DNA of 64,000 nt from an uncultured Enterobacteriaceae bacterium (GCA_964523895.1 CAZGBJ010000001.1:93633-157632); one strand, 5' to 3'; shown: positions 4,017-29,029, counted from the first letter of the stretch. Made by a program: numbers and translations. Notes: generated from the letters alone by a model not told the origin.

Positions 4017-4083
4017 TCTTGTTATTGCTTCACTCATGACTACTGACAACGTAGAATAACTCGTTAACTATTTGGAGAACACT

Positions 4084-4854: not shown

Positions 4855-4897
4855 CCTTATCTTAAATAAATAATTTATCATTCAATCATCATATATT

Positions 4898-5368
4898 TTA
4901 CTGATAAGTACTTAAACTTAAGTTATTCCTTTCTAATAAATCATAACGGATACCTTCAATTCCTTGTAATCTTTTCAAGATATGAAACCTCTCCTGACTT
5001 TGAGACTCCTCAGGAAAGACACTCTTTAAAAGAGAGGATATTTGAACATAGGTAAATTCATTTTCAGGATTACCCGCCAAAATTCGTATATACAGTTGAA
5101 TTTTTGGAAGCCCATCTTGTTCAGCTTCTACTAATTGGATCCACATATTATCAAGTTTATCATTCGTCATTTCAGCCAATGTCTTAACACGAAGTTTTTC
5201 TACAGCTTCAAATTGACCTGTGAAGAACAATTTATTATGTGACCTCATATAATTACGATATTTATCAACCTCTGTCTCTGCATTAAGCCACCATGCAAAT
5301 ACAAAGCAGATTACAATGGTACAAGCTAAAATTAGATGACCTATACAAAGGCCTTTATATTTAAACAT
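4898..5368 (-). CDS. Hypothetical membrane-anchored protein (156 aa), last gene of the CotH/VTC operon
   Basis: Single N-terminal hydrophobic helix (LCIGHLILACTIVICFVFAWW). Sits 30 nt downstream of the CotH gene on the same strand. No recognisable family. Confidence 0.45.
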   Translation of the reverse strand: MFKYKGLCIGHLILACTIVICFVFAWWLNAETEVDKYRNYMRSHNKLFFTGQFEAVEKLRVKTLAEMTNDKLDNMWIQLVEAEQDGLPKIQLYIRILAGNPENEFTYVQISSLLKSVFPEESQSQERFHILKRLQGIEGIRYDLLERNNLSLSTYQ

Positions 5369-5398
5369 TATCTTATGTTTTCATCATTCCTATTAAAC

Positions 5399-8101
5399 TT
5401 ACTTTAATGAGTGATATGCACTTTGTTTTATATGGTTTATTGATTCCTCGCCAACAACAATATCTTTTTCAGTAATGCCATGAAGACTCTTGCCAGATAT
5501 TACTCCTCCTCGACTATATCGCGCGTTCTTTCGATAAAGTGCTATGGCATTCCCCTTTTCAACTGAAAATTTAATATCCTCAACACGTACAATGGATTGA
5601 TCTTTAACCGCAATACCCAATACACAATCAGCAAGCTGACTCTTTTCAACTCTCACTTCACTTGCTTCACCGACTGAAATACATTTATCGCCGGTACCAT
5701 TGATATCAACATGACTAATTACTGATTTTGAATTCATCAGATCAATTGCATCATTTCCAATATTGTAAAAACGCGAATTAGATACAGAGACATCAACAAT
5801 ATCCATATCCAATGCATCAAAGGCTGTGTTATTAAATTCACAATTTCTAATGGCGCCACTACTATATGTGACATGCAAAGCATCATCGCCTACGGAATTA
5901 TTACTTATGAAACAGTTCTCTAATTGAAAAGAATTAACATAATGAATATTAAGCTGCCCCGGATAATTAATCAGGTTTCGTTGTGCAATAGAACCGCCAT
6001 TAACGTTAATATGAGCCATGACGCTTCCAGATGCTTCTTTACCTTGTATCACAATACTGCCCCAGGCCTGATCCAGATCTTTTTGTTTAAACTTGATTGG
6101 TGATTCTTCTGTTCCCTTTGCTATTACTTTTCCATAAAAAAATAGAGAACTATTCTTTGCCATCTTAAACACCGTCCCGGGCAAAATGTTTACTGTTTGC
6201 TCTTTTGTGAAATAGCGATCCTGATTAACTTCTATTTCACCCGATAATACAATCTCACTCACTACTTTTTCTTGTGTAAGTAATTCCCATGGATGAAATG
6301 AGGCTGTGTCAGCATCATCAGGTAAATTATCTACTTTTTCAATTGTTATGATATTTGAAGTGATTGCATTTTTACCTGTTAGTTTTTTTGTTTTAATTAG
6401 ATCAGCACTCTTCGCTCCTGTGATTAAGTATTCATAATGCAATGGTGATTGTTCATATGATTCATAAACTTTTGTTTCAGCCCCGCCTATTACATTATTT
6501 GATTGGTAACTTTCTGTTACTGCAATACCTGGATATAATCGATCTAATTGTTTTTTGTTTAGTACAGGATAAATCTCACCCTCATAGATGCGGAATAATT
6601 TAATTTCCTTATCGTTTGAATTTGACACAATTGACCAAGGATTAAAATCGACCGGACTGTTACCAAATATCGAAATAGAAACTTGAAACTGATCCTTAAT
6701 ATTCTCTTTAATATGATAATTTGCAGAAATAAAATTTAACCTATTCGCTATAAGTCCATATCGATAGTTATAAACTGTTTTCAACGTTTCGATAGCATTA
6801 CTATACTCATTCATAGAAAAAGGTAGAACCTTACCAAAACGACCAAATTTAAAATAATCATCGGGTTGTTGACGATAAGGATCCGCTGCTAGTTCACGTG
6901 CAATAATGTCATCTGCTTTATCAAGCATGTCAGCAACATAATCTACAGTAAACCTTTTCCGCAAATCATAAACTGTTAGATCATGTTCATATCTTAATAC
7001 AGGATTTAATAGTATTTGTTTATAGAGAGGTGTTACCGAAAGCGATTCGGATGTACTCCAAAAACGAATATCCCATTCAATCGGTTCAAATTTTCCTAAA
7101 TAGGGATCAAAATAAATTCGATGGTTATGAAATAAATCATGATGATCACTGCCAACTAATTTATCCAATGCCCAAAAAAGATAAAATTTATTCTTATCAA
7201 AGTAAGTGTCAAAATTTTTCATAAACATTAGTGGGTCTGGATCGTGAACCGATTTTATAAACAGCTCGATATCTTCACGGTTACCTGTTGATTCTATATT
7301 TCTTGAGGCATCTTTCTTCCATAATCTACTGTCAAACCATAATTCCGGTCTACCACGATTTACATAGACTTTCTCAGAAAGTCCTCTTTCTATTCCAAAT
7401 GGATCCGGCATATATATGGTATCGCCCGAATATATACTGCCGGGCATTCGATTATTTTTACGTAAAAATGATTCATCTATTTTACTTAGAAAAAAATGTA
7501 ATCCATTTGTTTCATTATTTATGAAGACACGTGCAGGAAAATATTCCGGCGTTAATAATCCAATCGAGCGCGCCATATCATAACTCACCCAGTCTGTAAC
7601 AGTGGCCATGGTTGATGGATTAACTAAATTAAACTGACGCTCATTACGATAAGTACTAAAAGGTGGGAGCTTGATTCTGATTGATTTTTTTTCATATAAC
7701 CAATGTAAATCCATTCCTCCCCGATAACGAAACTGAGCTTCACTTAAAAATTCCGGTCGATCTACCTTTAGATGACCTTTAACAAATTTACCTTTAGCAC
7801 TTTCAGGCAAGTTCGATACTAATGACTCTAAATCTTTATTATCAGCATATAAGTAAAATGAAGGTAGGCTAGTCTGTGCAGGTAGTTGTTTAATTGTTAA
7901 CTGTTGGTAATGGCGCTCTATATATTCGTTAATAAAATAGCGTAAATGGTCTAATGTATAACTTTCTTCAATAGCCATTACCTTCTTATATTGCATCATC
8001 TCTCTTACGCCACCAAACACAATACTACTTAATATAGTTAAGATGAATAGCGCTGAAAGAATAGGCCAATATGAACAATGTCTCGAGTGACTAATATTCA
8101 T
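5399..8101 (-). CDS. CotH kinase family protein with N-terminal signal anchor and C-terminal right-handed parallel beta-helix (PbH1) domain
   Basis: Central region RYRGGMDLHWLYEKKSIRIKLPP...QFNLVNPSTMATVTDWVSYDMARSIGLLTPEYFPARVFINNETNGLHFFLSKIDESFLRKNN...IYSGD fits the CotH domain pattern. The C-terminal ~200 aa carry repeated NxxxGDDAL, NTAFDALDMD, NIGNDAIDLM and GTGDKCISVG units typical of pectate-lyase-like beta-helices. The N-terminal hydrophobic segment is WPILSALFILTILSSIVFGG. Confidence 0.75.
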   Translation of the reverse strand: MNISHSRHCSYWPILSALFILTILSSIVFGGVREMMQYKKVMAIEESYTLDHLRYFINEYIERHYQQLTIKQLPAQTSLPSFYLYADNKDLESLVSNLPESAKGKFVKGHLKVDRPEFLSEAQFRYRGGMDLHWLYEKKSIRIKLPPFSTYRNERQFNLVNPSTMATVTDWVSYDMARSIGLLTPEYFPARVFINNETNGLHFFLSKIDESFLRKNNRMPGSIYSGDTIYMPDPFGIERGLSEKVYVNRGRPELWFDSRLWKKDASRNIESTGNREDIELFIKSVHDPDPLMFMKNFDTYFDKNKFYLFWALDKLVGSDHHDLFHNHRIYFDPYLGKFEPIEWDIRFWSTSESLSVTPLYKQILLNPVLRYEHDLTVYDLRKRFTVDYVADMLDKADDIIARELAADPYRQQPDDYFKFGRFGKVLPFSMNEYSNAIETLKTVYNYRYGLIANRLNFISANYHIKENIKDQFQVSISIFGNSPVDFNPWSIVSNSNDKEIKLFRIYEGEIYPVLNKKQLDRLYPGIAVTESYQSNNVIGGAETKVYESYEQSPLHYEYLITGAKSADLIKTKKLTGKNAITSNIITIEKVDNLPDDADTASFHPWELLTQEKVVSEIVLSGEIEVNQDRYFTKEQTVNILPGTVFKMAKNSSLFFYGKVIAKGTEESPIKFKQKDLDQAWGSIVIQGKEASGSVMAHINVNGGSIAQRNLINYPGQLNIHYVNSFQLENCFISNNSVGDDALHVTYSSGAIRNCEFNNTAFDALDMDIVDVSVSNSRFYNIGNDAIDLMNSKSVISHVDINGTGDKCISVGEASEVRVEKSQLADCVLGIAVKDQSIVRVEDIKFSVEKGNAIALYRKNARYSRGGVISGKSLHGITEKDIVVGEESINHIKQSAYHSLK

Positions 8102-9162
8102 AAATTGCCTTTGAATTCAGACTTGGCAACTTTACGAAAATCATTCCGCTTTGAATATCTGCCTAAAACAAGATAAATGAAAAGAAAGCCGATCATACTG
8201 AGACAAACAATCTGCCCAATCGAAAATAGTATTGGATATTCTCGAAATGATGCACGACTGGGTAAAATGGTTGTTGCCAACTTATGATATTCAGCATAAC
8301 CAAACCATGACGAGGATTTGATGTGAGGGAAATATAACTGGAATAATTTATCTGCTTGGCAAAAAAACATGTTGAGACTGCTTTCTTCATGTGCAGTAAG
8401 AATGTTTTCTTTATTAGAAAATATTTCGAACTTTAATAAAAACGAAGTGTTTGGCATACCAAAATCAACCACGCTGAACAAACTTAATGTGACAGCCCCA
8501 TATGGAATTCCAAAATGCGTTACTAAATTAACATTCTCAATTGATTTTAGCTTTAAAGACTCTGAAATTAGTTCCGGCTTTTCTATGTTAACAGTAGATA
8601 GCATTTCAAAAAGTATCGGCCGTTCTTTTCGTTTTACTCGTCCAAAAAGAGAGTGTTTATCGAATGGAGTTAATTTTTTGTTATAACTTCTTACAGTAAA
8701 ACTTTTCATCCCTTCAGTTAACTCGCCACGATCGCTAAAGATTATTTCTTCTTTTTCTACTCTATTTTCCGGTAAACTTTCATTGAATACATGCATCAAT
8801 TCTTTATTCGTATTTAGTAATTCCAAATTATCAAAATCATAATAAGTAATGCTTCTGGTAAGTTCTCCATCATAAATAATTAGTCGTGGTTCTTTAAAGG
8901 GAACATCTCTAGAGATACCTCGAATAAAAGTGGATACTGCAGCAATATCCTTATTATCAATTAAGTAATAAGTGTTTTTGAATTTTTGATTCTGACAAAC
9001 ATTTGGAAAAGCATCATTAGCAAAGACATGAGTAACTGTACACGTCAAAATACAGACGGTGACTAAAAAGAGTATCTTTACTATAGAAAACAATGGTGAA
9101 CTTCTATACAGAAGATAAATCCTGATCGTAAGTAACCAGAGTAGCTCGAATAACACTATCAT
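8098..9162 (-). CDS. Hypothetical protein (354 aa) with N-terminal signal/anchor and C-terminal TM helix
   Basis: In-operon ORF between the DUF4956 and CotH genes. The 5' end overlaps the DUF4956 stop by 59 nt, so the true start is probably internal. The C-terminal LFSIGQIVCLSMIGFLFIYLVLG is a TM helix. No family recognised. Confidence 0.5.
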   Translation of the reverse strand: MIVLFELLWLLTIRIYLLYRSSPLFSIVKILFLVTVCILTCTVTHVFANDAFPNVCQNQKFKNTYYLIDNKDIAAVSTFIRGISRDVPFKEPRLIIYDGELTRSITYYDFDNLELLNTNKELMHVFNESLPENRVEKEEIIFSDRGELTEGMKSFTVRSYNKKLTPFDKHSLFGRVKRKERPILFEMLSTVNIEKPELISESLKLKSIENVNLVTHFGIPYGAVTLSLFSVVDFGMPNTSFLLKFEIFSNKENILTAHEESSLNMFFCQADKLFQLYFPHIKSSSWFGYAEYHKLATTILPSRASFREYPILFSIGQIVCLSMIGFLFIYLVLGRYSKRNDFRKVAKSEFKGNL

Positions 9163-9820
9163 TAGTTTGCAGTTTATTCATAAAACCAGTTTGCTCTTGA
9201 TTTGTTTTTATCTCCAATGTGATCTCAGTTCCTGCAGCAGAAACTGTTTTTGATTTTATTGAAAAGAGATCAGCTTTTTGCTTTATTTCATTGAGAACAT
9301 TGTCTTCTTTTGATGAATCAGATAGTTGGATCACTAATAAAAACGTATCGGCTACGTCTTTTCCAGAACGTGTTAAAAACAGCATAAAAACTGCAATCAT
9401 AATAGAGCCAACAATTGAAATATTAAAATAACCAACGCCATTAGCAATACCAACACTAATCGCCCAAAATAGAAAAACGAGATCCATACTATCTTTAACC
9501 GGCGTTCTAAAACGAACAATCGACAATGCACCAACCATACCTAAAGAAAGTATCAAATTGCCACTGATCGTCATTATGATCATGGATGTCACTGTACTCG
9601 CTAAAACTAACGAGATATTAAAACTGCGTTGATATAAAACGCCCTGATATGTTTTCTTATAAATAAAAAATATAAACATGCCTACAAAAAATGACATCGA
9701 TATATTAAGCAGAATATTTAATGTTGTAATTCTATCCGTACTACCCATAGACATTGCGATAAAACTTTTCTGTAGTACGTCTGCAAAGGTAACTTGATCC
9801 ATGATTAGTTGTCCTCCCAT
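9104..9820 (-). CDS. DUF4956-like polytopic membrane protein
   Basis: 238 aa with four hydrophobic helices followed by a soluble C-terminal domain. Its gene order matches the conserved VTC/DUF4956/CotH triad. Confidence 0.6.
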   Translation of the reverse strand: MGGQLIMDQVTFADVLQKSFIAMSMGSTDRITTLNILLNISMSFFVGMFIFFIYKKTYQGVLYQRSFNISLVLASTVTSMIIMTISGNLILSLGMVGALSIVRFRTPVKDSMDLVFLFWAISVGIANGVGYFNISIVGSIMIAVFMLFLTRSGKDVADTFLLVIQLSDSSKEDNVLNEIKQKADLFSIKSKTVSAAGTEITLEIKTNQEQTGFMNKLQTNDSVIRATLVTYDQDLSSV

Positions 9821-10518
9821 TTACGGACTTTATGGAAACGTCTGGCTAATGTGTATTTACTAATAGCCATTCTTTCGGAATTAATTGATGATAATACATT
9901 CTTTAAATATCCAGGAAAAAAATTGTCATACTTTATTTCCAGTATTTGTTTGCCTTCAAGAATTACTGGCATCATATCTTTTACAGATGAAAACAAATCA
10001 AGGTGGTTTATATTCGAACGTAAACCTTGATCAAACGTCACTCTAATATTAGAAACAGGCAAAACATAAGCAACTCGATTATATTCAACGATCACTTTAG
10101 GTTTATAGAGCTTTGTAACAAAGGTGGTGTAAATTTCATTAAGAACAGGGTTATTTTTACCTAATAGCACAGTATAGTTACCCAGACATACTTGTTCAGC
10201 CTCTTCTTTGCTAATTATCGCAACATCTTTTTTTACAATTTGCCCCTGTTTACGCTTTATCTCAAATTTTACAGACTCATTGGCTCCGTCACCGTAGGTA
10301 CGTAATCGAATTTTTTTTCGCAATAGATTTCCTGACTGCTTCTCATATAAGCATTCATCGTCGTGCGAATCAAAGTAAAGACTACGTACACGATAACCTT
10401 GTTGATTCTTACAGTATGCATCGACATCCATCAACGAATTTAATTGATGTAACGATCTGTCAGATTGAATCTCGTTGAGATAGAATTTTAATTCGTAACG
10501 TTTTGATTGTATTTGCAC
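9805..10518 (-). CDS. VTC-domain (polyphosphate polymerase-like, CYTH/triphosphate tunnel) protein
   Basis: KRYELKFYL...VRSLYFDSHDDECLY...KKIRLRTYGD...KFEIKRK...YNRVAY...IRVTFDQGL...ILEIKYD...ISKYTLARRF follows the VTC-domain pattern: basic tunnel residues and the RxR/KxK, RxTxD and EIK motifs. Confidence 0.75.
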   Translation of the reverse strand: MQIQSKRYELKFYLNEIQSDRSLHQLNSLMDVDAYCKNQQGYRVRSLYFDSHDDECLYEKQSGNLLRKKIRLRTYGDGANESVKFEIKRKQGQIVKKDVAIISKEEAEQVCLGNYTVLLGKNNPVLNEIYTTFVTKLYKPKVIVEYNRVAYVLPVSNIRVTFDQGLRSNINHLDLFSSVKDMMPVILEGKQILEIKYDNFFPGYLKNVLSSINSERMAISKYTLARRFHKVRKWEDN

Positions 10519-10725
10519 TGATATAAAGTAATTTATATTTTTATAAATTTTATTTAATAGTTAACAATTTCTTTAATTCTGAAGAAATATATCATGTATG
10601 ACTGACAATATATTTCAACTAGTACTTACGTTATTGATTTCACAATTACACTTTAATTTATTTCGTATTAGATGAAAGATTGAATAACTTAATGTTTTTT
10701 CACAATAATATCTTTAGTAAAAACA

Positions 10726-10786
10726 TGACAATCTTGTCACTTTATGACAACAAAAGTCATTTTTATCGATTCGATATCAGTCGAAT
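10726..10786. promoter_or_regulatory. Cluster of three palindromes, candidate enhancer/UAS sites: TGACAAtcTTGTCA, ATGACaacaaaaGTCAT, ATCGAtTCGAT/ATTCGAtatcagTCGAAT
   Basis: Perfect inverted repeats read directly at 10726-10739, 10744-10760 and 10765-10786. They lie 75-135 bp upstream of the sigma-54 -24/-12 element of pilin 1, which is the position expected for a bacterial enhancer-binding protein such as PilR. They could instead serve the divergent VTC operon. Confidence 0.3.
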
Positions 10787-10858
10787 TTATTTTTATATGT
10801 TTCATTAAATTATTGAATATATTAGGAATATTTATTATATCTGTGTTTCTACCAATTC

Positions 10859-10875
10859 TGGCATAAGCTCTGCTT
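10859..10875 (+). promoter_or_regulatory. Sigma-54 (RpoN) -24/-12 promoter for pilin gene 1
   Basis: TGGCATaagctcTGCTT has GG and GC at the canonical 10-nt spacing (consensus TGGCAC-N5-TTGCW). It lies ~95 nt upstream of the pilin ATG. The sigma-54-dependent activator PilR is encoded nearby. Confidence 0.55.
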
Positions 10876-10968
10876 AACAGTAAACACCTCAAACTGAGGT
10901 AAAAACTATAGTTTTTGTAATCAGTTTTAAACTTATATAAACAAATCCATACAAACGGAGATTTTATA

Positions 10969-11388
10969 ATGAAACAAATGAAGAAAATCACTAGTACAAG
11001 TGAAAGAGGTTTTACTCTTATCGAATTAATGATTGTGGTTGCTATTATCGGTATTCTTGCCGCAGTAGCAATTCCGTCATATCGTGCATATGTTGCTGAA
11101 TCACACGGTGGTGCAGCAATGAAAGGTGTAGGTGCTTATGTATCTCAATCTCAAGTATGTGTCGAAACAGGTGTTGGCTGTACTGAATTAACTACCAGTG
11201 CTGGTGCTGATGCTGCGGTCACTTTAACCTCTGTTTCTGAAGGCGCTACTAGCTCAACCGTCGCATATAACGAAGGTGCCTGTATTATTACTGCTACCCT
11301 TGTTGCTGCATCTGTAACCTATGTTGCAACTGTTGGTACTGCAGGTGGTGCAACAGCTGCACAGTGTCAATCTGGCGCAGGTCTATAA
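10969..11388 (+). CDS. pilA: Type IVa major pilin (PilA-like), copy 1
   Basis: Leader ends ...SERG followed by [24 protein letters not shown], the class III signal peptide and N-terminal helix. GGAG RBS. Four Cys residues (one C-x6-C pair plus a C-terminal disulfide loop). Ser/Thr/Ala/Gly-rich C-terminal domain. Confidence 0.9.
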
Positions 11389-11412
11389 TTCTTAGATTAT
11401 AGAAACGTTACT

Positions 11413-11442
11413 AAAAAGACCCGCTGATGCGGGTCTTTTTAA
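11413..11442 (+). terminator. Rho-independent terminator after pilin 1
   Basis: aaaaAGACCCGCtgatGCGGGTCTtttt: an 8-bp GC-rich stem, 4-nt loop and T-run, A-tract upstream, so it is bidirectional in form. Confidence 0.8.
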
Positions 11443-11632
11443 ATAATAATAAAGATTTATGTGGTTCTGTGCTTAGTTGTTATTTACATCGATTCATAAG
11501 GTGTTTATTCATCTCAACCAAAAGATACATCTAGTCACATCCATGGGGAATGGATAGACGCTCAAAAGCTATATTCGCGTTGACTCCATTTACAGAAAAA
11601 ATATTTTTTGTATATCGTGAAGGAGTAAACTC

Positions 11633-12040
11633 ATGAATAATAAACACTCATCTCAACAGGGTTTTACCTTAATTGAATTAATGATCGTTGTTGCGATTAT
11701 CGGTATTCTTGCCGCAGTAGCAATTCCATCATATCGTGCTTATGTTGCTGAATCACATGGTGGTGCAGCTATGAAAGGGGTCAGTGCTTATGTGGCTCAG
11801 TCTCAAGCTTGCATTGAAACAGGTGTCGGTTGTACAGAATTAGCTACTAGTGCCGGTGGTGATGCAGCAGTCACTTTAACCTCTGTTTCTGAAGCTGCTA
11901 CCAGCTCAACCGTCGCATATAATGAAGGTGCTTGTATCGTTACTGCTACCCTCACTGCCGCATCTGTGGCCTATGTTGCAACTGTTGGTACTGCAGGTGG
12001 AGCAACAGCTGCACAGTGCCAAGCCGGAGCAGGTTTATAA
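11633..12040 (+). CDS. Type IVa major pilin, copy 2 (tandem paralog)
   Basis: Different leader ([10 protein letters not shown]). The mature protein differs from copy 1 at ~11 of 125 positions. AGGAG RBS. Confidence 0.9.
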
Positions 12041-12189
12041 TTATAAAACTGTTGAAATGTTACTAAAAAGATTTGTGTAGGTTTGCACTTAGTTGTTATA
12101 AAGTTACCAATTTCATTAGCTACTAAGTGTCATACTTACAAAGAGTTACAATCTTGTTATTCGTAAACAAATTTTCAACCCAATTCCGG

Positions 12190-13515
12190 TTATTTATTAA
12201 GACCATACTTATCTAAACGATAGCGTAAAACGCGTAAGCTTATACCCAATTTTTTCGCTGCCGCTGTTCGATTCCATTTAGTCTGCTCAAGCACTTCCAG
12301 AATAGCGTTTCGTTCTATGTCATCTAGTTGATTGACCAATGAAGCCGATTTCAGCTTATCTTGCTCGTTTTCGCCCTTACTTTTCTTGTCACTTAACAAT
12401 AAACCTTCTGGTTCAATTACATCGCTTTCAGCAAGCGTGAGTGCACGCTCAAGAATATTTTCCAGTTCACGAATATTGCCAGGGAAGTGATAAGTTTGAA
12501 GCTTACTTAAAGCCTCTGTAGATAAACGCGCTATCTGTTCTCCCGACTTATCTGCCATTTGCAACAAAATATGATTCACCAGGGAAACAATATCTTCCAT
12601 ACGATCTCTCAAAGCAGGAACATGAATTTCTATAACATTAATTCGATAATATAAATCCTTGCGAAAACTTTCCTGTTCCACCATCGCAGATAGTTGCTTA
12701 TGTGTTGCGCTTAAAATGCGTATGTCGATTTCTATTTCTTCTTGCGCGCCGACAGGTCGAATGCGTTTCTCCTGAATAGCACGTAATAATTTAACCTGAA
12801 GATGTAAGGGTAAATCCGCTACTTCATCAAGAAATAAAGTCCCTCCTTCAGCTGTATGAAGTAAACCTTCTTTATCAGAATCTGCGCCGGTAAAACTGCC
12901 TTTTTTGTGTCCAAAAAATTCACTTTCCATTAATTCATGCGGAATAGCACCACAATTAACCGGAACAAATGGTTTGTTAGTACGTGGACCAATATCATGA
13001 ATCATTCTTGCTACCAATTCTTTACCTGTACCCGATTCGCCGCTGATATGTATTGGTGCCTGACTACGAGCAACTTTATTAATCGTGTTATGCAATTCTC
13101 GAATGACGGTACTATCACCGACGATCGTTGCCTTTGAAGTATTATCACTTAAACCTGAATGCAAAGCATTTTGCACCACTGTTCTTAATGAATTTAAATC
13201 AATGGGTTTTGTCAGGAAATCAAACGCACCATATTTTAATGCCTGGATAGCACTATCCATACTTCCATGAGCGGTGATTACAGCAATAGGTATTTGTGGA
13301 AAATTCGCTTGTAATTCATTAACAAATTCTACACCATTGCCGTCGGGCAATTTCATATCTGTCAGACACAAATCAAATTTATATTGATCTAACAATAATC
13401 GCGCCTTGGCAAGATCCTCTGCGCAATGACAATCAATTTGCATCCGTTGCAGTGTTATCTGCAACAGCTCCCGAATATCTGGCTCATCATCAATGATTAA
13501 CGCAAGTTGCGACAT
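12190..13515 (-). CDS. pilR: Sigma-54-dependent response regulator PilR (NtrC family)
   Basis: REC domain (IIDDEPDIRELL...DMKLPDGNG), AAA+ sigma-54 activation domain (GESGTGKELVARMIH, GAFTGA) and a C-terminal Fis-type HTH. Very close to the P. aeruginosa PilR N-terminus. Confidence 0.9.
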   Translation of the reverse strand: MSQLALIIDDEPDIRELLQITLQRMQIDCHCAEDLAKARLLLDQYKFDLCLTDMKLPDGNGVEFVNELQANFPQIPIAVITAHGSMDSAIQALKYGAFDFLTKPIDLNSLRTVVQNALHSGLSDNTSKATIVGDSTVIRELHNTINKVARSQAPIHISGESGTGKELVARMIHDIGPRTNKPFVPVNCGAIPHELMESEFFGHKKGSFTGADSDKEGLLHTAEGGTLFLDEVADLPLHLQVKLLRAIQEKRIRPVGAQEEIEIDIRILSATHKQLSAMVEQESFRKDLYYRINVIEIHVPALRDRMEDIVSLVNHILLQMADKSGEQIARLSTEALSKLQTYHFPGNIRELENILERALTLAESDVIEPEGLLLSDKKSKGENEQDKLKSASLVNQLDDIERNAILEVLEQTKWNRTAAAKKLGISLRVLRYRLDKYGLNK

Positions 13516-13517
13516 AT

Positions 13518-15131
13518 TTATACCAGTTCACCTTGTTTGTCAGTGTGCATAAAATTCAGTCTAAATGTTGTGCCATATTCTGAAGTTGAGTGTAAATTTA
13601 AATTTGCCTGATTGGCCTCGCATAATTCACGAGCAAGATATAATCCCAAACCCGAGCCCTGTGTCTCTGTTGTAAAAAAAGGTTCGAAAAGATGTTCTTT
13701 AATTTTTTCGGACACTCCAGAACCCGTATCAATGATATCAATATACGGTCTTTGTATTTCCTCGTTAATATCACAAGATAAAGTAATAACGGGCTTGCTC
13801 TGACTATAACGTATCGCATTCTCACAAAGATTCCAGACAACCTGATGTAATTGAGATGGATCCATTCTGACAAGAATATTTTCTCTCATTACCTCAAGTG
13901 CGATATCTCCGCTGGATAAATTATGCCTGGATTCAAATTCGTTAATAAATTTTTTCATCCAGGAAATTATTTCAAAATCTTCTAACGTTGCCTGATCTCT
14001 GCGACTAATACTTAGTACATTTTCAATAATATTGTTAACACGAAGAGAATGCTCATTAATAATTTCAGTTAAGCGTTTATCCTCCAGGCAGATCGTATCA
14101 GATTCTTGCAATAACTGACCTGCATGATTAATTGCGCCCAAAGGGTTCCTGACTTCATGTGCAATACTTGCTGTTAATCTTCCTAATGAAGCAAGTTTTA
14201 GATGCTGGGCTCGCTGTCTCAACCTCGCTATATCTTCAAGGAAAACTAAGATCTGATAATTTATTCCTAATGTTAATTTAATAAATGAAACCTGCAACTC
14301 GGCTTCATATTCATTTAGTTTAATAATTACATTTTGCATTCCATTGTTATTTAGCCAGTCATCTATATAAGCTTTCAGATAGTTATTTATAAAATGGAAA
14401 ATTTTATGTGTGTCTCCTTGCTGTTGCCCCAATAACTGTTTAGATGATTCATTAATAAGTAATACATTCATATTGCTATCAAGAACAATAATCCCTGATT
14501 GCATGCGCTGAACAATATGCTCATTTAATTTTGCTAATTCATTTATTTCTATAGCCTGCTGCTCAGCCAATGCTTCCGTTTCGCGTACTCGCGCAGCTAA
14601 AAGATTTCCAATAATAGCTGTGATAAAGAATGTTGCACCGAGCATTCCAGCGTGAATGTAGTTTACCCTGTCGAAGAAGAGGACGAATTGAACATACAGC
14701 TCGTGTCCCAGGACAAATAGTGTTGCAATTGCAGCAAAAAGTATCGAGATCCTTCCTTCTCGTAGTATGCTACCACCAGCAACTGCAATAATGATTAACA
14801 GACCAAAACCGCTACCAAGACCACTGCTCGAGTACATCAATAATCCCAACATAATGATGTCTAGCAGGACATGAAATGCAATTTGAATATTAAATCCGGG
14901 GCTCTGCTGCAGAATAAACCAGCTAAAAATGAAAGCCGCAAATAAATAAATGTGGCTAGTTACTGAAAAAAAATGAGCATTCATACTACCCAATGGCGCA
15001 GGCAGTTGGCCTATGTAGACCAAAATGACAAATAAACCGGAAAGCAAAACTCGATAATTATTAAAATACCGTAATGCACGCCAATCCATGGATTTGGTCT
15101 GCTTCCGTATTATTTTATTAGCTTTATCCAT
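13518..15131 (-). CDS. pilS: Sensor histidine kinase PilS
   Basis: Six N-terminal TM helices, an H-box (ASIAHEVRNPL) and an HATPase domain (N, G1 and G2 boxes). Lies immediately upstream of pilR, with 2 nt between them. Confidence 0.85.
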   Translation of the reverse strand: MDKANKIIRKQTKSMDWRALRYFNNYRVLLSGLFVILVYIGQLPAPLGSMNAHFFSVTSHIYLFAAFIFSWFILQQSPGFNIQIAFHVLLDIIMLGLLMYSSSGLGSGFGLLIIIAVAGGSILREGRISILFAAIATLFVLGHELYVQFVLFFDRVNYIHAGMLGATFFITAIIGNLLAARVRETEALAEQQAIEINELAKLNEHIVQRMQSGIIVLDSNMNVLLINESSKQLLGQQQGDTHKIFHFINNYLKAYIDDWLNNNGMQNVIIKLNEYEAELQVSFIKLTLGINYQILVFLEDIARLRQRAQHLKLASLGRLTASIAHEVRNPLGAINHAGQLLQESDTICLEDKRLTEIINEHSLRVNNIIENVLSISRRDQATLEDFEIISWMKKFINEFESRHNLSSGDIALEVMRENILVRMDPSQLHQVVWNLCENAIRYSQSKPVITLSCDINEEIQRPYIDIIDTGSGVSEKIKEHLFEPFFTTETQGSGLGLYLARELCEANQANLNLHSTSEYGTTFRLNFMHTDKQGELV

Positions 15132-25978: not shown

Positions 25979-27694
25979 ATGTCGACACCTGCAAAAAAAA
26001 TAAATCTGAGTGGGCTAGCACGGAAACTCGTGCAAGATGGCCTGCTTGATGAAGAAAAAGCGCAAAGTACGCATGAAGAGGCACTAAAGAAGAAAAGACC
26101 TTTTGTTAGTCTTCTCGTAGAAAACAAACTTGTCCCCAGTAGCAGCATTGCATTGGCGGCGGCCCAGGAATTTGGTGCGCCACTGGTTGATATCGATTTA
26201 CTGGAAATTGACCCTGATGTCATCAAGCTGGTCAAAGAAGACCTCATCAAGAAACACCATGCCCTACCCATTTTCAAACGCGGTAAGCGCCTTGCTGTTG
26301 CTGTCGCTGATCCAACCAATATCCTGGCTCTTGACGAAATTAAATTTGCAACCAGCTTAGGTACTGACGCTATTGTTGTAGAAGAAGATAAACTCACAAA
26401 GACCATCGAGAAAGCCATAGAAGAAGCAGAGGGTGGCTTGGGCGACATGGATGGTGACGATTTCGATGATCTCGATGATTTGGAAGTTGCTGAAGATGGC
26501 CCACAAGAGGAGGATGACTCTGACGTTGACGATGCACCAGTAGTACGTTTTGTCAATAAATGTTTGCTTGATGCCATTAAAAAAGGCGCGTCAGATTTAC
26601 ATTTTGAACCCTATGAAAAAATGTACCGCGTACGCTTTCGTGTAGACGGTGTTTTAATGGAAGTAGCAAAACCTCCCTTGAGCCTTAATTTGAAAATAGC
26701 GGCACGCATAAAAGTAATGTCACGAATGGACGTATCAGAACGACGTGTTCCACAAGACGGACGTATCAAATTAAAACTCTCAAAAACAAAAGCGATTGAT
26801 TTTCGTGTTAGTACTTGCCCAACACTGTTCGGTGAAAAAACCTGTATGCGAATTCTGGATTCAGATGCCGCCGCATTACAAATAGATCAGTTGGGATATG
26901 AAGACCACCAGAAAGAAATGTTTTTAGACAACTTGCATAAACCTTATGGCATGTTCCTTGTTACCGGGCCAACGGGTAGTGGTAAAACTGTTTCGCTTTA
27001 TACTGGCATCAATATCCTGAATCAGGTAGATATCAATATTTCCACTGCCGAAGATCCTGTTGAAATTAATCTCCCCGGCGTCAACCAGGTTCAGGTTGAT
27101 GAGAAACAAGGCATGACATTCGATAAAGCCTTGAAAGCTTTTTTAAGACAGGATCCGGACATTATTCTGGTAGGGGAAATACGCGATTTGGGTACAGCTT
27201 CTATTGCGGTAAAAGCAGCACAGACAGGACATATGGTAATGTCGACATTGCATACCAATGATTGCCCGCAAACCCTGACCCGTTTACAAGACATGGGCAT
27301 ACAGGCTTTTGCCGTGGCAACCAGTATTAACCTTATTACTGCACAACGATTACTCCGACGCCTAAAGGAAGATAATCGGGCAGTGATAGAAATGCCTGAC
27401 GAGACCCTAAGAGAAGAAGGCTTCCCTGAAGAAATGATTAAAGAGGGCATTACTCTGTATGGCCCTGCTGAAGATACAGAAGATAATCCAGGCTACAAAG
27501 GGCGAGCAGGCATCTATCAAGTTATGCCCATATCAGATGACATGAAACGTTTGATTATTGAAGGTGCTAACGCGGTACAGTTGGCCGATCAAGCTTCGTC
27601 AGAGGGTATATGGGACATCCGTAAATCAGGTTTAATGAAGGCGGCCGCTGGCGTCACCAGTATGGTCGAAGTTAATCGAGTAACCGTAGAGTAG
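25979..27694 (+). CDS. pilB: Type IV pilus assembly ATPase PilB
   Basis: Walker A GPTGSGKT, Asp and His boxes, tetracysteine region and N-terminal GSPII domains. Confidence 0.95.
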   Translation: MSTPAKKINLSGLARKLVQDGLLDEEKAQSTHEEALKKKRPFVSLLVENKLVPSSSIALAAAQEFGAPLVDIDLLEIDPDVIKLVKEDLIKKHHALPIFKRGKRLAVAVADPTNILALDEIKFATSLGTDAIVVEEDKLTKTIEKAIEEAEGGLGDMDGDDFDDLDDLEVAEDGPQEEDDSDVDDAPVVRFVNKCLLDAIKKGASDLHFEPYEKMYRVRFRVDGVLMEVAKPPLSLNLKIAARIKVMSRMDVSERRVPQDGRIKLKLSKTKAIDFRVSTCPTLFGEKTCMRILDSDAAALQIDQLGYEDHQKEMFLDNLHKPYGMFLVTGPTGSGKTVSLYTGINILNQVDINISTAEDPVEINLPGVNQVQVDEKQGMTFDKALKAFLRQDPDIILVGEIRDLGTASIAVKAAQTGHMVMSTLHTNDCPQTLTRLQDMGIQAFAVATSINLITAQRLLRRLKEDNRAVIEMPDETLREEGFPEEMIKEGITLYGPAEDTEDNPGYKGRAGIYQVMPISDDMKRLIIEGANAVQLADQASSEGIWDIRKSGLMKAAAGVTSMVEVNRVTVE

Positions 27695-27699
27695 ATATT

Positions 27700-28920: not shown

Positions 28921-29029
28921 AATAATAATAAATGTATCGTTACTGAAGTTTCAGCAAAATAAATATATTTCTAAAAATATTTTTTTAGAGCTGTTTTTTA
29001 CGTGACCAACCAAGCCACCGAGAATATTC

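What the first reader, a model, noticed from the sequence alone, without database searches (positions are those of the whole stretch)
4898..10518. AT-rich five-gene operon encoding the VTC-domain / DUF4956 / CotH-kinase triad, inserted between suhB and the pilin locus
Five co-directional, tightly packed or overlapping minus-strand genes sit in a visibly more AT-rich stretch than the flanking housekeeping DNA. That is consistent with horizontal acquisition. The VTC + DUF4956 + CotH gene neighbourhood recurs in unrelated bacteria, but to my knowledge no function has been shown for it. Working hypothesis (inference): the soluble VTC domain, a triphosphate-tunnel polyphosphate-polymerase fold, plus the polytopic DUF4956 membrane protein mirror the eukaryotic VTC complex, in which a catalytic domain is fused to a membrane channel. 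They could make and translocate polyphosphate across the inner membrane, where the exported CotH atypical kinase uses it (or ATP) to phosphorylate envelope or surface substrates. The neighbouring type IV pilins are obvious candidates. This would be a new extracytoplasmic phosphorylation system.
Basis: partly seen in the sequence, partly recalled or inferred. Interest (0 to 1): 0.85.

Follow-up and report, generated by a model that had tools for sequence, protein, structure and literature searches.

The report
Pilus-linked polyphosphate and CotH kinase cassette
Next to the type IV pilin genes sits a conserved five-gene, membrane-spanning cassette: a yeast-like polyphosphate polymerase inside the cell, an MgtC-like membrane protein, and an exported "phosphate tunnel" protein plus a CotH kinase outside the inner membrane, which may phosphorylate pilus or surface molecules where no ATP source is known, although no function has been shown.

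Summary
Five co-directional, abutting minus-strand genes occupy 4898-10518. GC is 33.6% against a genome mean of 39.1% (0.45th percentile). The Pfam calls for VTC, DUF4956 and CotH are significant. The triad is real and non-random: all 7 VTC-positive genomes among 300 sampled from the phylum have DUF4956 within 5 kb, and 8 of 11 loci also have a ~900-aa CotH. It has already been noted in the literature, without a function.

New here:
- The unnamed 354-aa gene encodes an exported, membrane-anchored triphosphate-tunnel (TTM/CYTH) fold (pLDDT 91.7; YgiF Z 13.6, Vtc4 Z 10.6).
- VTC keeps the Vtc4 tunnel residues.
- DUF4956 folds like MgtC/SapB/YhiD, not like the eukaryotic VTC channel.
- The five genes form a conserved cassette that lies beside the major pilin gene in most loci seen, including between pilB and pilA in Candidatus Thiodiazotropha.
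- In congeners lacking the cassette, the same slot holds AT-rich glycan islands.

Codon usage is not foreign, and no mobility signatures were found.

Best reading, by inference: an envelope-spanning phosphoryl-supply and kinase module that modifies pilin or another pilus or surface substrate. PolyP synthesis, translocation, the phosphoryl donor and the target are all untested.

The parts
9805..10518 (-). Cytoplasmic VTC-domain protein (237 aa): a Vtc4-like triphosphate-tunnel polyphosphate-polymerase domain with no SPX or membrane segment.
   Evidence: PF09359, E 4.3e-38. A family profile hits the yeast Vtc4 catalytic domain 3g3q at E 3e-18. Invariant R7, K11, R71, R73, E86, K88, K97, Y146, R148, D163, E194, K196 and K221, plus near-invariant S220, align with the Vtc4 motifs RQTTKY, RLRWYG, VERK, YNRTAF, LEVK and FSKF. 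No hydrophobic segment.
9104..9820 (-). DUF4956 membrane protein (238 aa; probably starts at Met7, position 9802). It has about five helices, an invariant cytoplasm-side VRFRTPxKD motif and a C-terminal ACT-like domain. The fold is MgtC/SapB/YhiD-like.
   Evidence: PF16316, E 4.7e-11. Invariant G97, R103, F104, R105 and K109. Model pLDDT 70.8. AFDB Swiss-Prot Foldseek: SapB 3e-8, YhiD 6.5e-7 (TM 0.53/0.58), MgtC about 1e-6, over residues ~30-234. Homologues are 67-89% identical in more than 120 clusters.
8098..9162 (-). Exported, inner-membrane-anchored TTM/CYTH-fold protein (354 aa as called). It has an N-terminal signal or anchor segment, a tunnel-fold domain at about residues 58-305, a C-terminal TM helix at 315-333 and a basic tail. 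No Pfam family.
   Evidence: No Pfam hit even at E 10. The family comprises 71 clusters. AF2 model pLDDT 91.7. Foldseek PDB top hits are ThTPase, AtTTM3, YgiF and Vtc3 (E about 1e-5 to 1e-6). VIA-align: YgiF Z 13.6, Vtc2 Z 11.2, Vtc4 Z 10.6. AFDB clusters: DUF4349 8.9e-16 and CYTH proteins. Homologues carry classical ~20-residue signal peptides and conserved C56 and C268. There is a conserved basic cluster and no ExExK motif.
5399..8101 (-). N-terminally anchored CotH kinase-like domain (about residues 85-450), a middle region, and a C-terminal right-handed beta-helix (about 620-900). Total 900 aa.
   Evidence: PF08757, E 8.3e-22, and PF13229, E 2.8e-10. The profile hits B. cereus CotH 5jd9 over its full length at E 1.4e-28. 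Conserved motifs: KKS, DESFLRKN, GSIY(224), HN(326) and W343-D344. H321 sits at the position of the Bacillus catalytic Asp and D322 follows it. TM segment at 14-32. Four conserved Cys in the beta-helix. The beta-helix carries the most nearly invariant columns.
4898..5368 (-). Small N-terminally anchored helical protein (156 aa), possibly TPR-like. It is the last gene of the cassette and is present in every full cassette seen (151-164 aa).
   Evidence: No Pfam hit. TM segment at 7-25. Atlas hits to TPR clusters are leads only (0.88-0.89). Orthologues occupy the same position in L007, L008, L053, L049, L055, L056, L066, L067 and L068.
10519..10968 (.). AT-rich (23% GC) divergent intergenic region between the cassette and pilin 1. 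It holds a sigma-54-type -24/-12 element at 10859-10873 (+) about 95 nt upstream of pilin 1, and GACA/TGTC repeats at 10725-10760.
   Evidence: Sequence. TGGCATAAGCTCTGC was found, but the motif count in the whole window is not above chance, so only its position is suggestive. GC.
10969..11388 (+). Type IVa major-pilin-like gene 1 (139 aa).
   Evidence: PF07963, E 4.4e-09. Canonical [20 protein letters not shown]-terminus.
11633..12040 (+). Type IVa major-pilin-like gene 2 (135 aa), a tandem paralogue 87% identical to gene 1.
   Evidence: PF07963, E 8.8e-11. Alignment.
12190..15131 (-). pilR (sigma-54 activator, 12190-13515) and pilS (13518-15131): the pilin two-component regulators that flank the pilins in every related locus.
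   Evidence: Pfam for PilR. The PilS assignment rests on orthologues in related loci that carry 6TM_PilS, HisKA and HATPase_c and on 35-79% protein identity to them.
25979..29908 (+). pilB, pilC and pilD (context). In this genome they are separated from pilA-pilRS by sucCD, nadE, bamD, rluD, gdh and clpB.
   Evidence: Pfam T2SSE+MshEN, T2SSF and Peptidase_A24. tblastn with Thiodiazotropha PilB gives 56% identity.

Best explanation
The five genes form one conserved, envelope-spanning module tied to the type IV pilus locus.

Shown by computation:
- A soluble cytoplasmic Vtc4-like tunnel enzyme.
- A very conserved MgtC/SapB-like polytopic membrane protein, with an invariant basic RFRTPxK motif predicted at the cytoplasmic face.
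- An exported second tunnel-fold (TTM) domain, held at the outer face of the inner membrane by a C-terminal helix.
- An N-terminally anchored CotH kinase fused to a beta-helix.
- A small anchored helical protein.

Inferred mechanism:
1. VTC uses ATP to build a phosphoanhydride polymer (polyP) at the membrane.
2. The DUF4956 protein, probably as an oligomer, receives it and passes it, or its phosphoryl groups, across the membrane.
3. The periplasmic tunnel protein binds or processes it. One possibility is that it regenerates a nucleotide donor.
4. The CotH domain uses that supply to phosphorylate a substrate at the periplasmic face.
5. The most likely substrate is the neighbouring major pilin, while it is still membrane-embedded before assembly, or another pilus component. 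The beta-helix and the helical-repeat protein would act as substrate-binding or scaffold parts.

Functionally the cassette would be a pilin/surface modification module. It would be an alternative to the glycan islands that occupy the same slot in congeners.
For: Anatomy:
- Family and fold assignments.
- The Vtc4 tunnel residues are invariant across 13 bacterial homologues.
- TTM-protein homologues carry signal peptides, a conserved Cys pair and a C-terminal TM helix with a basic tail.
- The CotH beta-helix has four conserved Cys and an N-terminal TM segment.
- A streptococcal homologue is reported in secretomes (bioRxiv 10.1101/2024.04.20.589940).

Linkage of the parts:
- VTC and DUF4956 are adjacent in 11 of 11 loci from 7 of 7 VTC-positive genomes in the phylum sample, and CotH is present in 8 of 11.
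- The same five-gene order recurs in G001, G006, L053, L049/L050, L055, L056, L066, L067 and L068. L054 shows at least the first four genes in the same order. Identity to the window's TTM protein falls as low as 26% in L054.
- A three-gene VTC-DUF4956-TTM unit exists without CotH (L057). This suggests the first three genes are a self-contained supply unit.

Specialised role:
- The genome already has PPK1, PPK2 and PPX.

Pilus link:
- A major pilin gene is the immediate neighbour in 10 of 12 cassette loci and 5 of 7 distinct arrangements.
- These include coaE-pilD-pilC-pilB | cassette | pilin-pilR-pilS in Candidatus Thiodiazotropha (L066) and in L068, L056 and L049/L050, and pilS-pilR-pilin-cassette-suhB in L053 and L067.
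- G000 has only 7 prepilin-motif genes in 2.57 Mb. Chance adjacency would be under about 1% per locus.

Slot logic:
- In congeners G022, G007, G008 and G003, the suhB-to-pilin interval holds 18-40 kb of mostly AT-rich DNA.
- In the two intervals scanned in bulk (G022, G007) this encodes sugar-nucleotide, glycosyltransferase, methyltransferase and PMT_2 (GT-C) genes.
- In all four congeners an unannotated ~630-aa ORF follows the pilin.

Evolutionary pattern:
- The cytoplasmic and membrane parts are 85-89% identical among congeners.
- The exposed parts are 33-71% identical.
Against: - No experiment or expression data exist; no RNA run was found.
- MgtC-family proteins are not known channels (my knowledge). 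DUF4956 shows no likeness to the eukaryotic VTC membrane domain.
- The CotH domain keeps the adenine-binding Tyr and Trp. PolyP is therefore unlikely to be its direct donor, and the link between polyP and the kinase needs an extra unproven step.
- The canonical catalytic Asp is replaced by His, with an Asp one residue later. Kinase activity is therefore not assured.
- CotH topology is not settled by charge rules, because K/R residues lie on both sides of the TM segment.
- The exported TTM protein lacks the ExExK motif and may only bind its ligand.
- Pilin adjacency across loci may descend from one ancestral insertion and is not a set of independent events.
- Two cassette loci (L054, L055) have no adjacent pilin.
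- The looser triad lies next to glycan genes, not pilins, in other lineages (L009 and L033) and in Gram-positives (PMC7112168).
Confidence: 0.4

Rival explanations
1. The machine is the same, but the target is a surface or periplasmic glycan or another envelope polymer rather than pilin. The CotH domain, or its conserved beta-helix, would act on a polysaccharide, for example by glycan phosphorylation or by attaching or organising polyP on a polymer. Pilin adjacency would only reflect a hypervariable surface-modification slot.
For: - The beta-helix (PF13229, weak NosD and GH28 likeness) carries the most nearly invariant columns in these proteins, with invariant Asp, Lys and Ser residues.
- Divergent VTC-CotH-DUF4956 clusters in congeners G004 and G008 lie among what look like sugar-nucleotide and glycosyltransferase genes, judged from their N-terminal sequences.
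- In Gram-positives the triad is contiguous with pel polysaccharide operons (PMC7112168).
- The same slot in congeners holds glycan islands.
Against: - The five-gene version seen here is next to pilin genes, not glycan genes, in 10 of 12 loci. That includes the gap between pilB and pilA in distant hosts.
- No glycan-synthesis gene lies within or beside the cassette in this window.
Confidence: 0.2
2. The cassette is a polyphosphate export or periplasmic polyP handling system in its own right, for phosphate or metal storage, or for extracellular polyP. CotH and the small protein would be regulators or accessories, and there would be no functional tie to pili.
For: - VTC-DUF4956 pairs occur without CotH (G170 and G198).
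- A VTC-DUF4956-TTM trio occurs without CotH (L057).
- The exported TTM protein has a conserved basic cluster suited to phosphate chains.
- PPK-independent extracellular polyP exists in bacteria and its source is unknown (PMC13484657).
Against: - The conserved placement beside pilA in several arrangements is left unexplained.
- CotH and the 156-aa gene are retained in nearly every cassette with the exported TTM.
- The MgtC-like fold is not a known polyanion channel.
Confidence: 0.13
3. The module is mainly cytoplasmic and regulatory. VTC would make or hydrolyse a triphosphate or polyP signal in the cytoplasm. DUF4956 would act like MgtC, binding and modulating another membrane protein such as the ATP synthase or a sensor kinase like PilS or PhoR. 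CotH would phosphorylate cytoplasmic targets, and nothing would cross the membrane.
For: - DUF4956 matches MgtC, SapB and YhiD over its whole length. Salmonella MgtC acts by binding membrane partners (my knowledge).
- CotH keeps ATP-type binding residues.
- The charge distribution around the CotH TM segment is ambiguous.
- PilS and PilR are constant neighbours.
Against: - The TTM protein is clearly exported: homologues have cleavable-type signal peptides, a conserved Cys pair and a basic C-terminal tail.
- Beta-helix domains with conserved Cys pairs are typically extracytoplasmic (my knowledge).
- A streptococcal homologue is found in secretomes.
- Most relatives have K/R-rich N-termini before the TM segment.
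Confidence: 0.1
4. The cassette is a drifting accessory island that lands in a recombination hot spot beside pilin genes. Its genes may be functional, but their location says nothing about their role.
For: - The suhB-to-pilin interval is hypervariable and mostly AT-rich in the genus.
- The cassette is AT-rich relative to its flanks in other hosts too: 36.1% against 45.4% in Thiodiazotropha and 39.0% against 44.8% in L067.
- Its distribution is patchy: 3 of 23 congeners and 0 of 400 sampled genomes of the class.
Against: - No integrase, tRNA or flanking repeats were found, and codon usage is native.
- Adjacency to pilA persists while the other flank changes between suhB and pilB, and while orientation changes.
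- In Pseudomonas aeruginosa, genes next to pilA are pilin-specific accessory genes (my knowledge).
Confidence: 0.07

Closest known systems
Eukaryotic VTC complex (Vtc4/Vtc3 or Vtc2/Vtc1), the polyphosphate polymerase-translocase of yeast vacuoles and acidocalcisomes
   Same: - The catalytic tunnel domain is homologous (PF09359; profile against 3g3q at E 3e-18), with the basic and acidic tunnel residues conserved.
- As in the Vtc4 plus Vtc2/3 pairing, two tunnel-fold proteins occur in one system: one canonical and one divergent.
- Both are associated with a membrane component.
   Different: - There is no SPX domain.
- The tunnel domain is a separate soluble protein, not fused to membrane helices.
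- The membrane partner is MgtC/SapB-like, not the Vtc1-type three-helix domain.
- The second tunnel domain is exported to the opposite side of the membrane. It is recognisable only by fold.
- A CotH kinase is attached to the system.
cotH / polyphosphate-polymerase / DUF4956 accessory genes of Gram-positive pel operons (Whitfield et al. 2020, PMC7112168; S. intermedius SIR_1594-1592, bioRxiv 10.1101/2024.04.20.589940)
   Same: - The same three families sit in one operon.
- CotH is predicted to be secreted or anchored, and VTC cytoplasmic.
- DUF4956 is described there as a four-TM protein with an ACT domain.
- Function is unknown.
   Different: - Here the gene order is VTC-DUF4956-TTM-CotH-small protein.
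- CotH is fused to a beta-helix rather than FN3.
- An exported TTM-fold protein replaces DUF4832.
- The neighbours are type IV pilin, pilRS and pilBCD genes rather than pel genes.
Bacillus CotH spore-coat kinase (PDB 5JD9/5JDA; Nguyen et al. 2016 as cited in PMC7821199 and PMC12189002)
   Same: - Full-length homology of the kinase domain (E 1.4e-28).
- Conserved KKS and DE.FL motifs, the adenine-sandwich Tyr and Trp, the Asn of the catalytic loop and the metal-binding Asp.
   Different: - The Bacillus catalytic Asp position (D228 in B. subtilis) is His321 here, followed by Asp322.
- The protein is membrane-anchored, about 2.5 times longer and carries a beta-helix.
- It acts, if at all, outside the cytoplasm.
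- B. subtilis has CotH without VTC or DUF4956 (controls).
MgtC/SapB/YhiD family membrane proteins
   Same: The whole-length predicted fold is shared: a helical membrane domain plus a C-terminal ACT-like domain. JGI annotates some homologues as YhiD-like.
   Different: - Sequence similarity is below family thresholds (PF02308 14.5 bits against a cut-off of 31.4; NCBIfam 20 bits against 214).
- DUF4956 has its own invariant LSLGxVGALSIVRFRTPxKD motif.
- It is obligately paired with a VTC gene.
Pilin accessory and modification genes next to pilA: P. aeruginosa tfpO/tfpW-Z; Neisseria PptA/PptB phospho-form transferases (my knowledge)
   Same: - The position is immediately beside the major pilin gene.
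- Presence is variable and lineage-specific.
- The predicted site of action is the periplasmic face of the inner membrane.
- Congeners carry glycosylation-type genes in the same slot.
   Different: - There is no sequence relation to TfpO, TfpW or PptA.
- The chemistry would be direct phosphorylation by a kinase-fold enzyme supplied by a dedicated polymerase, not transfer of a glycan or of a lipid-derived headgroup.

Membership tests
VTC domain / Vtc4-type polyphosphate polymerase (PF09359) | Significant match to the family model | tested here: met
   E 4.3e-38, 131.6 bits against a cut-off of 23, covering positions 1-230 of 235.
VTC domain / Vtc4-type polyphosphate polymerase (PF09359) | Conserved tunnel residues of the catalytic subunit: R/K on strand 1, the RxR pair, ExK motifs, YxR and SK | tested here: met
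   R7, K11, R71, R73, E86, K88, K97, Y146, R148, D163, E194, K196 and K221 are invariant in 13 homologues. S220 is near-invariant (at least 90%). All align with the corresponding Vtc4 motifs in 3g3q and 5iiq.
VTC domain / Vtc4-type polyphosphate polymerase (PF09359) | PolyP synthesis from ATP | not testable with these tools
   Needs an enzyme assay.
Eukaryotic VTC complex architecture | SPX sensor domain and Vtc1-type membrane helices forming the channel | tested here: not met
   VTC has no hydrophobic segment. No SPX or DUF202-type domain was reported for any of the five products at the Pfam thresholds used. The membrane partner folds like MgtC/SapB.
CotH kinase family (PF08757) | Match to the family model and to the solved CotH structure sequence | tested here: met
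   PF08757, E 8.3e-22. Against 5jd9: E 8.7e-06 with a single sequence and 1.4e-28 with a profile, over the full length.
CotH kinase family (PF08757) | Nucleotide- and metal-binding residues: adenine-sandwich Tyr and Trp, catalytic-loop Asn, metal-binding Asp | tested here: met
   GSIY224, W343, N326 and D344 are conserved in the eight cassette-type proteins aligned. Residue roles are taken from PMC12189002 and PMC7821199.
CotH kinase family (PF08757) | Catalytic Asp at the canonical position, five residues before the loop Asn (B. subtilis D228) | tested here: not met
   The alignment places His321 there, with Asp322 one residue later. More distant triad-type CotH proteins have no Asp in this stretch. 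A one-residue alignment slip cannot be excluded without a structure.
CotH kinase family (PF08757) | Protein kinase activity | not testable with these tools
   Needs an assay.
DUF4956 (PF16316) | Match to the family model | tested here: met
   E 4.7e-11, 43.2 bits against a cut-off of 30.6. Precomputed PF16316 is recorded on all 120 listed homologues.
MgtC/SapB family (PF02308) | Sequence match above the family threshold | tested here: not met
   14.5 bits against a cut-off of 31.4. NCBIfam PRK09977: 20.2 bits against 214.
MgtC/SapB family (PF02308) | Shared fold: membrane domain plus ACT-like C-terminal domain | tested here: met
   Foldseek against AFDB Swiss-Prot: SapB 3e-8, YhiD 6.5e-7 (TM 0.53/0.58), MgtC about 1e-6, over the whole length. 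Model confidence is only moderate (pLDDT 70.8).
Triphosphate tunnel metalloenzyme / CYTH superfamily (for the 354-aa product) | Eight-stranded tunnel fold | tested here: met
   Model pLDDT 91.7. TTM proteins fill the top of two independent searches: Foldseek at E about 1e-6, and VIA-align with YgiF Z 13.6, Bh2851 13.1, Vtc2 11.2 and Vtc4 10.6.
Triphosphate tunnel metalloenzyme / CYTH superfamily (for the 354-aa product) | ExExK signature on the first strand, and a sequence match to the CYTH or VTC models | tested here: not met
   The first strand reads YYLID. There is no Pfam hit at E 10. hhalign against the VTC family gives only a weak local match (probability 10.6%). Conserved acidic and basic residues exist elsewhere in the protein.
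Pilin accessory / modification loci | Conserved position immediately beside the major pilin gene | tested here: met
   10 of 12 cassette loci and 5 of 7 arrangements, including the pilB-pilA gap in Candidatus Thiodiazotropha.
Pilin accessory / modification loci | Cassette-dependent covalent change of pilin | not testable with these tools
   Needs mass spectrometry of pilin with and without the cassette.
Horizontally acquired genomic island | Atypical base composition and patchy distribution | tested here: met
   0.45th percentile for GC. Present in 3 of 23 congeners. Also AT-rich relative to its flanks in two other hosts.
Horizontally acquired genomic island | Foreign codon usage, or an integrase, tRNA or flanking repeats | tested here: not met
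   Codon-usage likelihood percentiles are 40-94. No tRNA lies within 1-20000. There are no convincing flanking repeats.

The most novel reading that the evidence does not exclude
The cassette would be a previously unknown way of powering protein phosphorylation outside the cytoplasm.

1. A bacterial Vtc4-like polymerase spins polyP at the inner face of the membrane.
2. An MgtC-like oligomer threads it across.
3. A second, exported tunnel-fold protein runs the polymerase reaction in reverse, or otherwise hands on phosphoryl groups, to feed an anchored CotH kinase.
4. That kinase phosphorylates type IV pilin before assembly.

This would create a new class of pilin phospho-modification that alternates with glycosylation islands at the same locus.
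Probability: 0.15. Interest if true: 0.9.

Novelty: new variant of a known kind. Interest (0 to 1): 0.72.

Why it matters
Three open questions meet here.
1. How can kinase-fold enzymes work outside the bacterial cytoplasm, where no ATP supply is known?
2. Do bacteria have a Vtc4-type, PPK-independent route to polyphosphate, and can they move it across a membrane? PPK-independent extracellular polyP has just been reported in the Bacillus cereus group with no enzyme assigned (PMC13484657).
3. What do the widespread but uncharacterised VTC/DUF4956/CotH gene clusters do?

The five-gene, pilus-embedded version gives a concrete candidate substrate (pilin). It has a compact set of parts that could be moved into a laboratory host. 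It also has two tunnel-fold proteins on opposite sides of one membrane, an arrangement not described before as far as the held literature shows.

If pilin is the target, this would add a new chemistry to the pilin modifications that shape adhesion, aggregation and resistance to pilus-specific phages.

Tried and rejected
- **Complex prediction of DUF4956 with VTC:** no answer (score 0.00). It counts neither for nor against binding.
- **RNA evidence:** only three DNA runs from subsurface metagenomes hold the stretch, and no RNA holder is listed. Nothing can be said about expression.
- **PADLOC defence models:** no meaningful hit.
- **Atlas look-alikes:** nothing for the 354-aa protein; only sub-threshold TPR leads for the 156-aa protein.
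- **Direct sequence comparisons:** the 354-aa protein against VTC by BLASTP gave nothing, and by hhalign only a weak YFD-strand match (probability 10.6%). Their relation rests on fold alone.
- **Extra ~360-380-aa membrane proteins in other triad loci:** the one in L042 is not related to the TTM family, and the one in L035 is HlyD-like. The idea of a universal fourth gene was dropped.
- **The search for related loci:** the 52-sequence alignment failed. A smaller alignment found only three genome loci.
- **Class-wide scan for the TTM family:** 0 of 400 genomes, so no unbiased sample of contexts could be built. The synteny claim rests on 12 loci found through protein look-ups.
- **Foldseek of the DUF4956 model against the PDB:** only small ferredoxin/ACT-like hits at E about 1e-2.
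- **PDB sequence search with the C-terminal half of CotH:** nothing found.
- **Mobile-element signatures:** none found (tRNA, flanking repeats).
- **Sigma-54 motif:** the count in the window is not above chance; only its position upstream of pilin 1 is suggestive.
- **Legionella-type origin:** I first suspected this from the GC content.

Full report
**1. The observation**

The minus strand carries five abutting ORFs:
- 4898-5368 (156 aa)
- 5399-8101 (900 aa)
- 8098-9162 (354 aa)
- 9104-9820 (238 aa)
- 9805-10518 (237 aa)

Pfam gives the following:
- VTC, E 4.3e-38, for the 237-aa product.
- DUF4956, E 4.7e-11, for the 238-aa product.
- CotH, E 8.3e-22, plus a right-handed beta-helix, E 2.8e-10, for the 900-aa product.
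- Nothing for the other two products. NCBIfam adds nothing.

The flanks are a suhB-type inositol monophosphatase on one side. On the other are two prepilin genes followed by a PilR-type sigma-54 activator and PilS.

The whole assembly is 2.57 Mb at 39.1% GC. The operon is 33.6% GC, lower than 99.5% of equally long windows. So the described object is there and its composition is unusual.

Synonymous codon usage, however, is typical of the genome (percentiles 40-94), and GC3 is only moderately low. No tRNA, integrase or flanking repeat marks the borders.

**2. Is the gene triad more than chance?**

In 300 genomes drawn evenly from the phylum, VTC occurs in 7, DUF4956 in 10 and CotH in 24.
- All 7 VTC genomes (11 loci, about five families) have DUF4956 within 5 kb.
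- Eight of the 11 loci also carry a CotH of 860-1020 aa between or beside them. The usual order is DUF4956-CotH-VTC.
- VTC plus DUF4956 without CotH also occurs (G170, G198).
- Among the control genomes, Bacteroides thetaiotaomicron, Corynebacterium glutamicum and Methanosarcina acetivorans ring for all three families. Bacillus subtilis rings only for CotH.

The neighbourhood has been noticed before, as accessory genes of Gram-positive pel operons (PMC7112168). It was also described in S. intermedius (bioRxiv 10.1101/2024.04.20.589940) and in C. perfringens NELoc-2 (PMC11677781). No function has been shown in any of these.

**3. The parts**

*VTC.*
- A profile of 13 bacterial homologues hits the yeast Vtc4 catalytic domain at E 3e-18.
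- The columns that never vary (near-invariant for S220) are R7/K11, R71/R73, E86/K88, K97, Y146/R148, D163, E194/K196 and S220/K221.
- They align with the Vtc4 strands RQTTKY, RLRWYG, VERK, YNRTAF, LEVK and FSKF.
- To my knowledge these are the tunnel residues that bind and polymerise phosphate (Hothorn et al. 2009).
- The protein has no membrane segment.

*DUF4956.*
- This is the most conserved part: 67-89% identity across more than 120 clusters, and 75% to a Candidatus Thiodiazotropha protein.
- The model (pLDDT 70.8) has five helices and a C-terminal beta-alpha-beta-beta-alpha-beta domain.
- It matches SapB, YhiD and MgtC models over its whole length (E 3e-8 to 1e-6).
- By the positive-inside rule, the invariant VRFRTPxKD motif and the C-terminal domain face the cytoplasm (inference).
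- It is therefore not a copy of the eukaryotic VTC membrane domain.

*The 354-aa product.*
- It has 71 relatives at the 50% cluster level.
- Most are about 325 aa. They begin with a classical ~20-residue signal peptide, share a conserved Cys pair, and end in a TM helix plus a basic tail.
- With this alignment AlphaFold2 gives pLDDT 91.7.
- Two independent structure searches put triphosphate tunnel enzymes on top. Foldseek finds ThTPase, AtTTM3, YgiF and Vtc3 at E about 1e-6. VIA-align finds YgiF Z 13.6, Vtc2 Z 11.2 and Vtc4 Z 10.6. AFDB clusters give a DUF4349 protein at 8.9e-16 and CYTH proteins.
- It lacks the ExExK signature but keeps a cluster of about eleven basic positions, several acidic ones, and His170 and Tyr160.
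- Sequence-level kinship to VTC is not detectable.

*CotH.*
- A profile aligns with the whole of B. cereus CotH (E 1.4e-28).
- The KKS and DESFL motifs are conserved in the cassette-type proteins. So are the Tyr and Trp that sandwich adenine in the Bacillus enzyme (roles from PMC12189002), the loop Asn and the metal-binding Asp.
- The position of the Bacillus catalytic Asp (D228 in B. subtilis, PMC7821199) is His321, followed by Asp322.
- The C-terminal beta-helix holds most of the nearly invariant columns and four conserved Cys.
- The N-terminal TM segment has basic residues on both sides, so charge rules alone do not fix the topology.
- An outward orientation is inferred from the beta-helix, the Cys pattern, the K/R-rich N-termini of most relatives and the reported secretion of a streptococcal homologue.

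*The 156-aa product.* It has an N-terminal TM segment and a helical remainder. Atlas gives only leads to TPR proteins.

**4. Context: the main new result**

The five genes recur in the same order: VTC, DUF4956, exported TTM (~325-350 aa), CotH-beta-helix (~900 aa), then a small ~155-aa protein. They do so even where the TTM protein is only 26-29% identical to the window's copy (L049/L050, L054).

A major pilin gene is the immediate neighbour in most of them:
- **Window, G001 and G006:** pilins lie divergent from VTC, then pilR and pilS. suhB lies on the other side.
- **L053 and L067:** pilS-pilR-pilin(s)-cassette, followed in L067 by suhB and spoU.
- **L056 and L049/L050:** pilB, with pilC and pilD in L050, on one side, and a pilin on the other, followed by pilR and pilS in L056.
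- **L066 (Candidatus Thiodiazotropha sp., GCA_025656675.1) and L068:** coaE-pilD-pilC-pilB | cassette | pilin(s)-pilR-pilS.

Two loci (L054, L055) have no adjacent pilin. One distant locus (L057) has only VTC-DUF4956-TTM.

G000 has seven prepilin-motif genes in about 2.6 Mb. Chance adjacency would therefore be below about 1% per locus. The loci are related, though, so they are not independent trials. What can be said is that adjacency to pilA has survived changes of the other flank and of orientation.

Within the genus, suhB and pilS lie on one contig in every genome checked. The interval between them varies from 8.7 kb here to 18-40 kb in G007, G022, G003 and G008.
- These longer intervals are AT-rich in G022, G007 and G008 (32.5-35.3% GC). 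The G003 interval is 37.5-39.2%, near the 39.1% genome mean of G000.
- The two intervals scanned in bulk (G022, G007) encode GDP-mannose dehydratase, epimerases, GT2/GT4 glycosyltransferases, methyltransferases and a PMT_2 GT-C enzyme.
- In all four congeners an unannotated ~630-aa ORF follows the pilin gene.

The cassette thus occupies a slot that otherwise holds glycan, and possibly pilin-glycosylation, genes.

A second, divergent VTC-CotH(-DUF4956) cluster sits among what look like sugar-nucleotide and glycosyltransferase genes in G004 and G008.

**5. Other facts bearing on mechanism**

- The genome has PPK1, PPK2 and PPX elsewhere. VTC is therefore not needed for bulk polyP.
- Among congeners the cytoplasmic and membrane parts are as conserved as suhB (85-89% against 86-88%). 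CotH (62-71%), the TTM protein (49-60%) and the small protein (33-56%) diverge faster, as exposed proteins often do.
- The cassette is AT-rich relative to its flanks in other hosts too (36.1% against 45.4% in L066).
- The family is rare: 3 of 23 congeners and 0 of 400 sampled genomes of the class.

**6. Interpretation**

What is shown is an anatomy:
- an intact-looking Vtc4-type polymerase inside the cell;
- an obligately linked MgtC-like membrane protein;
- a tunnel-fold domain and, probably, a kinase-beta-helix outside the inner membrane;
- all held together as one unit beside the pilin gene.

What is inferred is the flow: polyP made inside, handed across, and used outside to drive phosphorylation of pilin or another pilus or surface substrate.

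The weakest links are these:
- Whether DUF4956 conducts anything.
- How polyP would feed a kinase that appears built for an adenine nucleotide.
- The identity of the target.

The exported tunnel protein is the obvious candidate for the missing step. It could bind polyP, or regenerate ATP from ADP by the reverse polymerase reaction. That is speculation.

The rivals are listed with their evidence in the Rival explanations section. They are a glycan target, polyP export as an end in itself, a cytoplasmic MgtC-style regulatory module, and mere hot-spot hitch-hiking.

**7. Comparison and novelty**

The triad as such is a known but uncharacterised neighbourhood. The following were not found in the held literature:
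- the five-gene form;
- the exported TTM-fold member;
- the MgtC-like nature of DUF4956;
- the embedding in type IV pilus loci.

I therefore rate it a new variant of a known kind, with a categorically new mechanism possible but unproven.

**8. Limits**

There is no experimental or expression evidence. The organism is an uncultured subsurface gammaproteobacterium. Complex prediction gave no answer. The synteny sample is small and phylogenetically linked. Residue-level claims for CotH rest on sequence alignment only.

Noticed in passing
window 10969-11388 and 11633-12040: Two tandem major-pilin-like genes are 87% identical to each other. Their short Ser/Thr/Ala/Gly-rich globular parts match only the N_methyl model, not Pfam Pilin. 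G001 and G006 also carry two copies.
   Followed up: partly
window 10725-10873: A sigma-54-type -24/-12 element (TGGCATAAGCTCTGC) lies about 95 nt upstream of pilin 1. GACA/TGTC repeats lie about 100-130 nt further upstream, in the intergenic region shared with the cassette. Co-regulation of the cassette by PilR is possible but untested.
   Followed up: partly
L009 (G004:C1) 9539-13530; L033 (G008:C28) 17215-19804: Congeners carry a second, divergent VTC-CotH(-DUF4956) cluster (21-32% identity). It sits among ORFs that look like sugar-nucleotide and glycosyltransferase genes. In G008 it lies inside the same suhB-to-pilS variable interval.
   Followed up: partly
L059-L065 (G022, G007, G008, G003 between suhB and pilS): The 18-40 kb variable intervals, AT-rich except in G003, encode glycan-synthesis genes (scanned in G022 and G007). 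An unannotated 620-640-aa ORF lies directly after the pilin gene; further 624-635-aa ORFs in G008 and G003 carry C-terminal TPRs. There is also a PMT_2 (GT-C) enzyme. This looks like a pilin glycosylation island.
   Followed up: partly
L057 424-2944 (GCA_030596405.1): This locus has a three-gene version, VTC-DUF4956-exported TTM, without CotH or the small protein. A separate CYTH gene and an Exo_endo_phos gene lie about 2.5 kb away.
   Followed up: no
L068 11707-14453: In this pilB | cassette | pilin locus the CotH gene is called as two pieces (460 aa CotH, 268 aa beta-helix) with a 560-nt gap. It is either a broken gene or a long-read assembly error.
   Followed up: no
L066 9291-14941; L067 9339-14923: The cassette is AT-rich relative to its surroundings in other hosts as well: 36.1% against 45.4% GC in Candidatus Thiodiazotropha, and 39.0% against 44.8% in L067.
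   Followed up: partly
window 9802-9820 and 9104-9162: The gene starts are probably called too far upstream. Most DUF4956 homologues begin at the window protein's Met7. Most relatives of the 354-aa protein begin near its residues 24-48. The 59-nt and 16-nt overlaps may therefore not be real.
   Followed up: partly
window 15316-30552: Between pilS and pilBCD lie sucCD, nadE, bamD, rluD, a glutamate dehydrogenase and clpB. In Thiodiazotropha clpB-coaE-pilDCB and pilA-pilRS-nadE directly flank the cassette. This suggests a rearrangement split the pilus locus in this lineage.
   Followed up: partly
G000 contigs C3 and C5: Canonical ppk1 (C3:98198-98740 region) and ppx (C3:95404-96252) lie about 2 kb apart. 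ppk2 is on C5, and a second partial PPK2 match is on C42.
   Followed up: no
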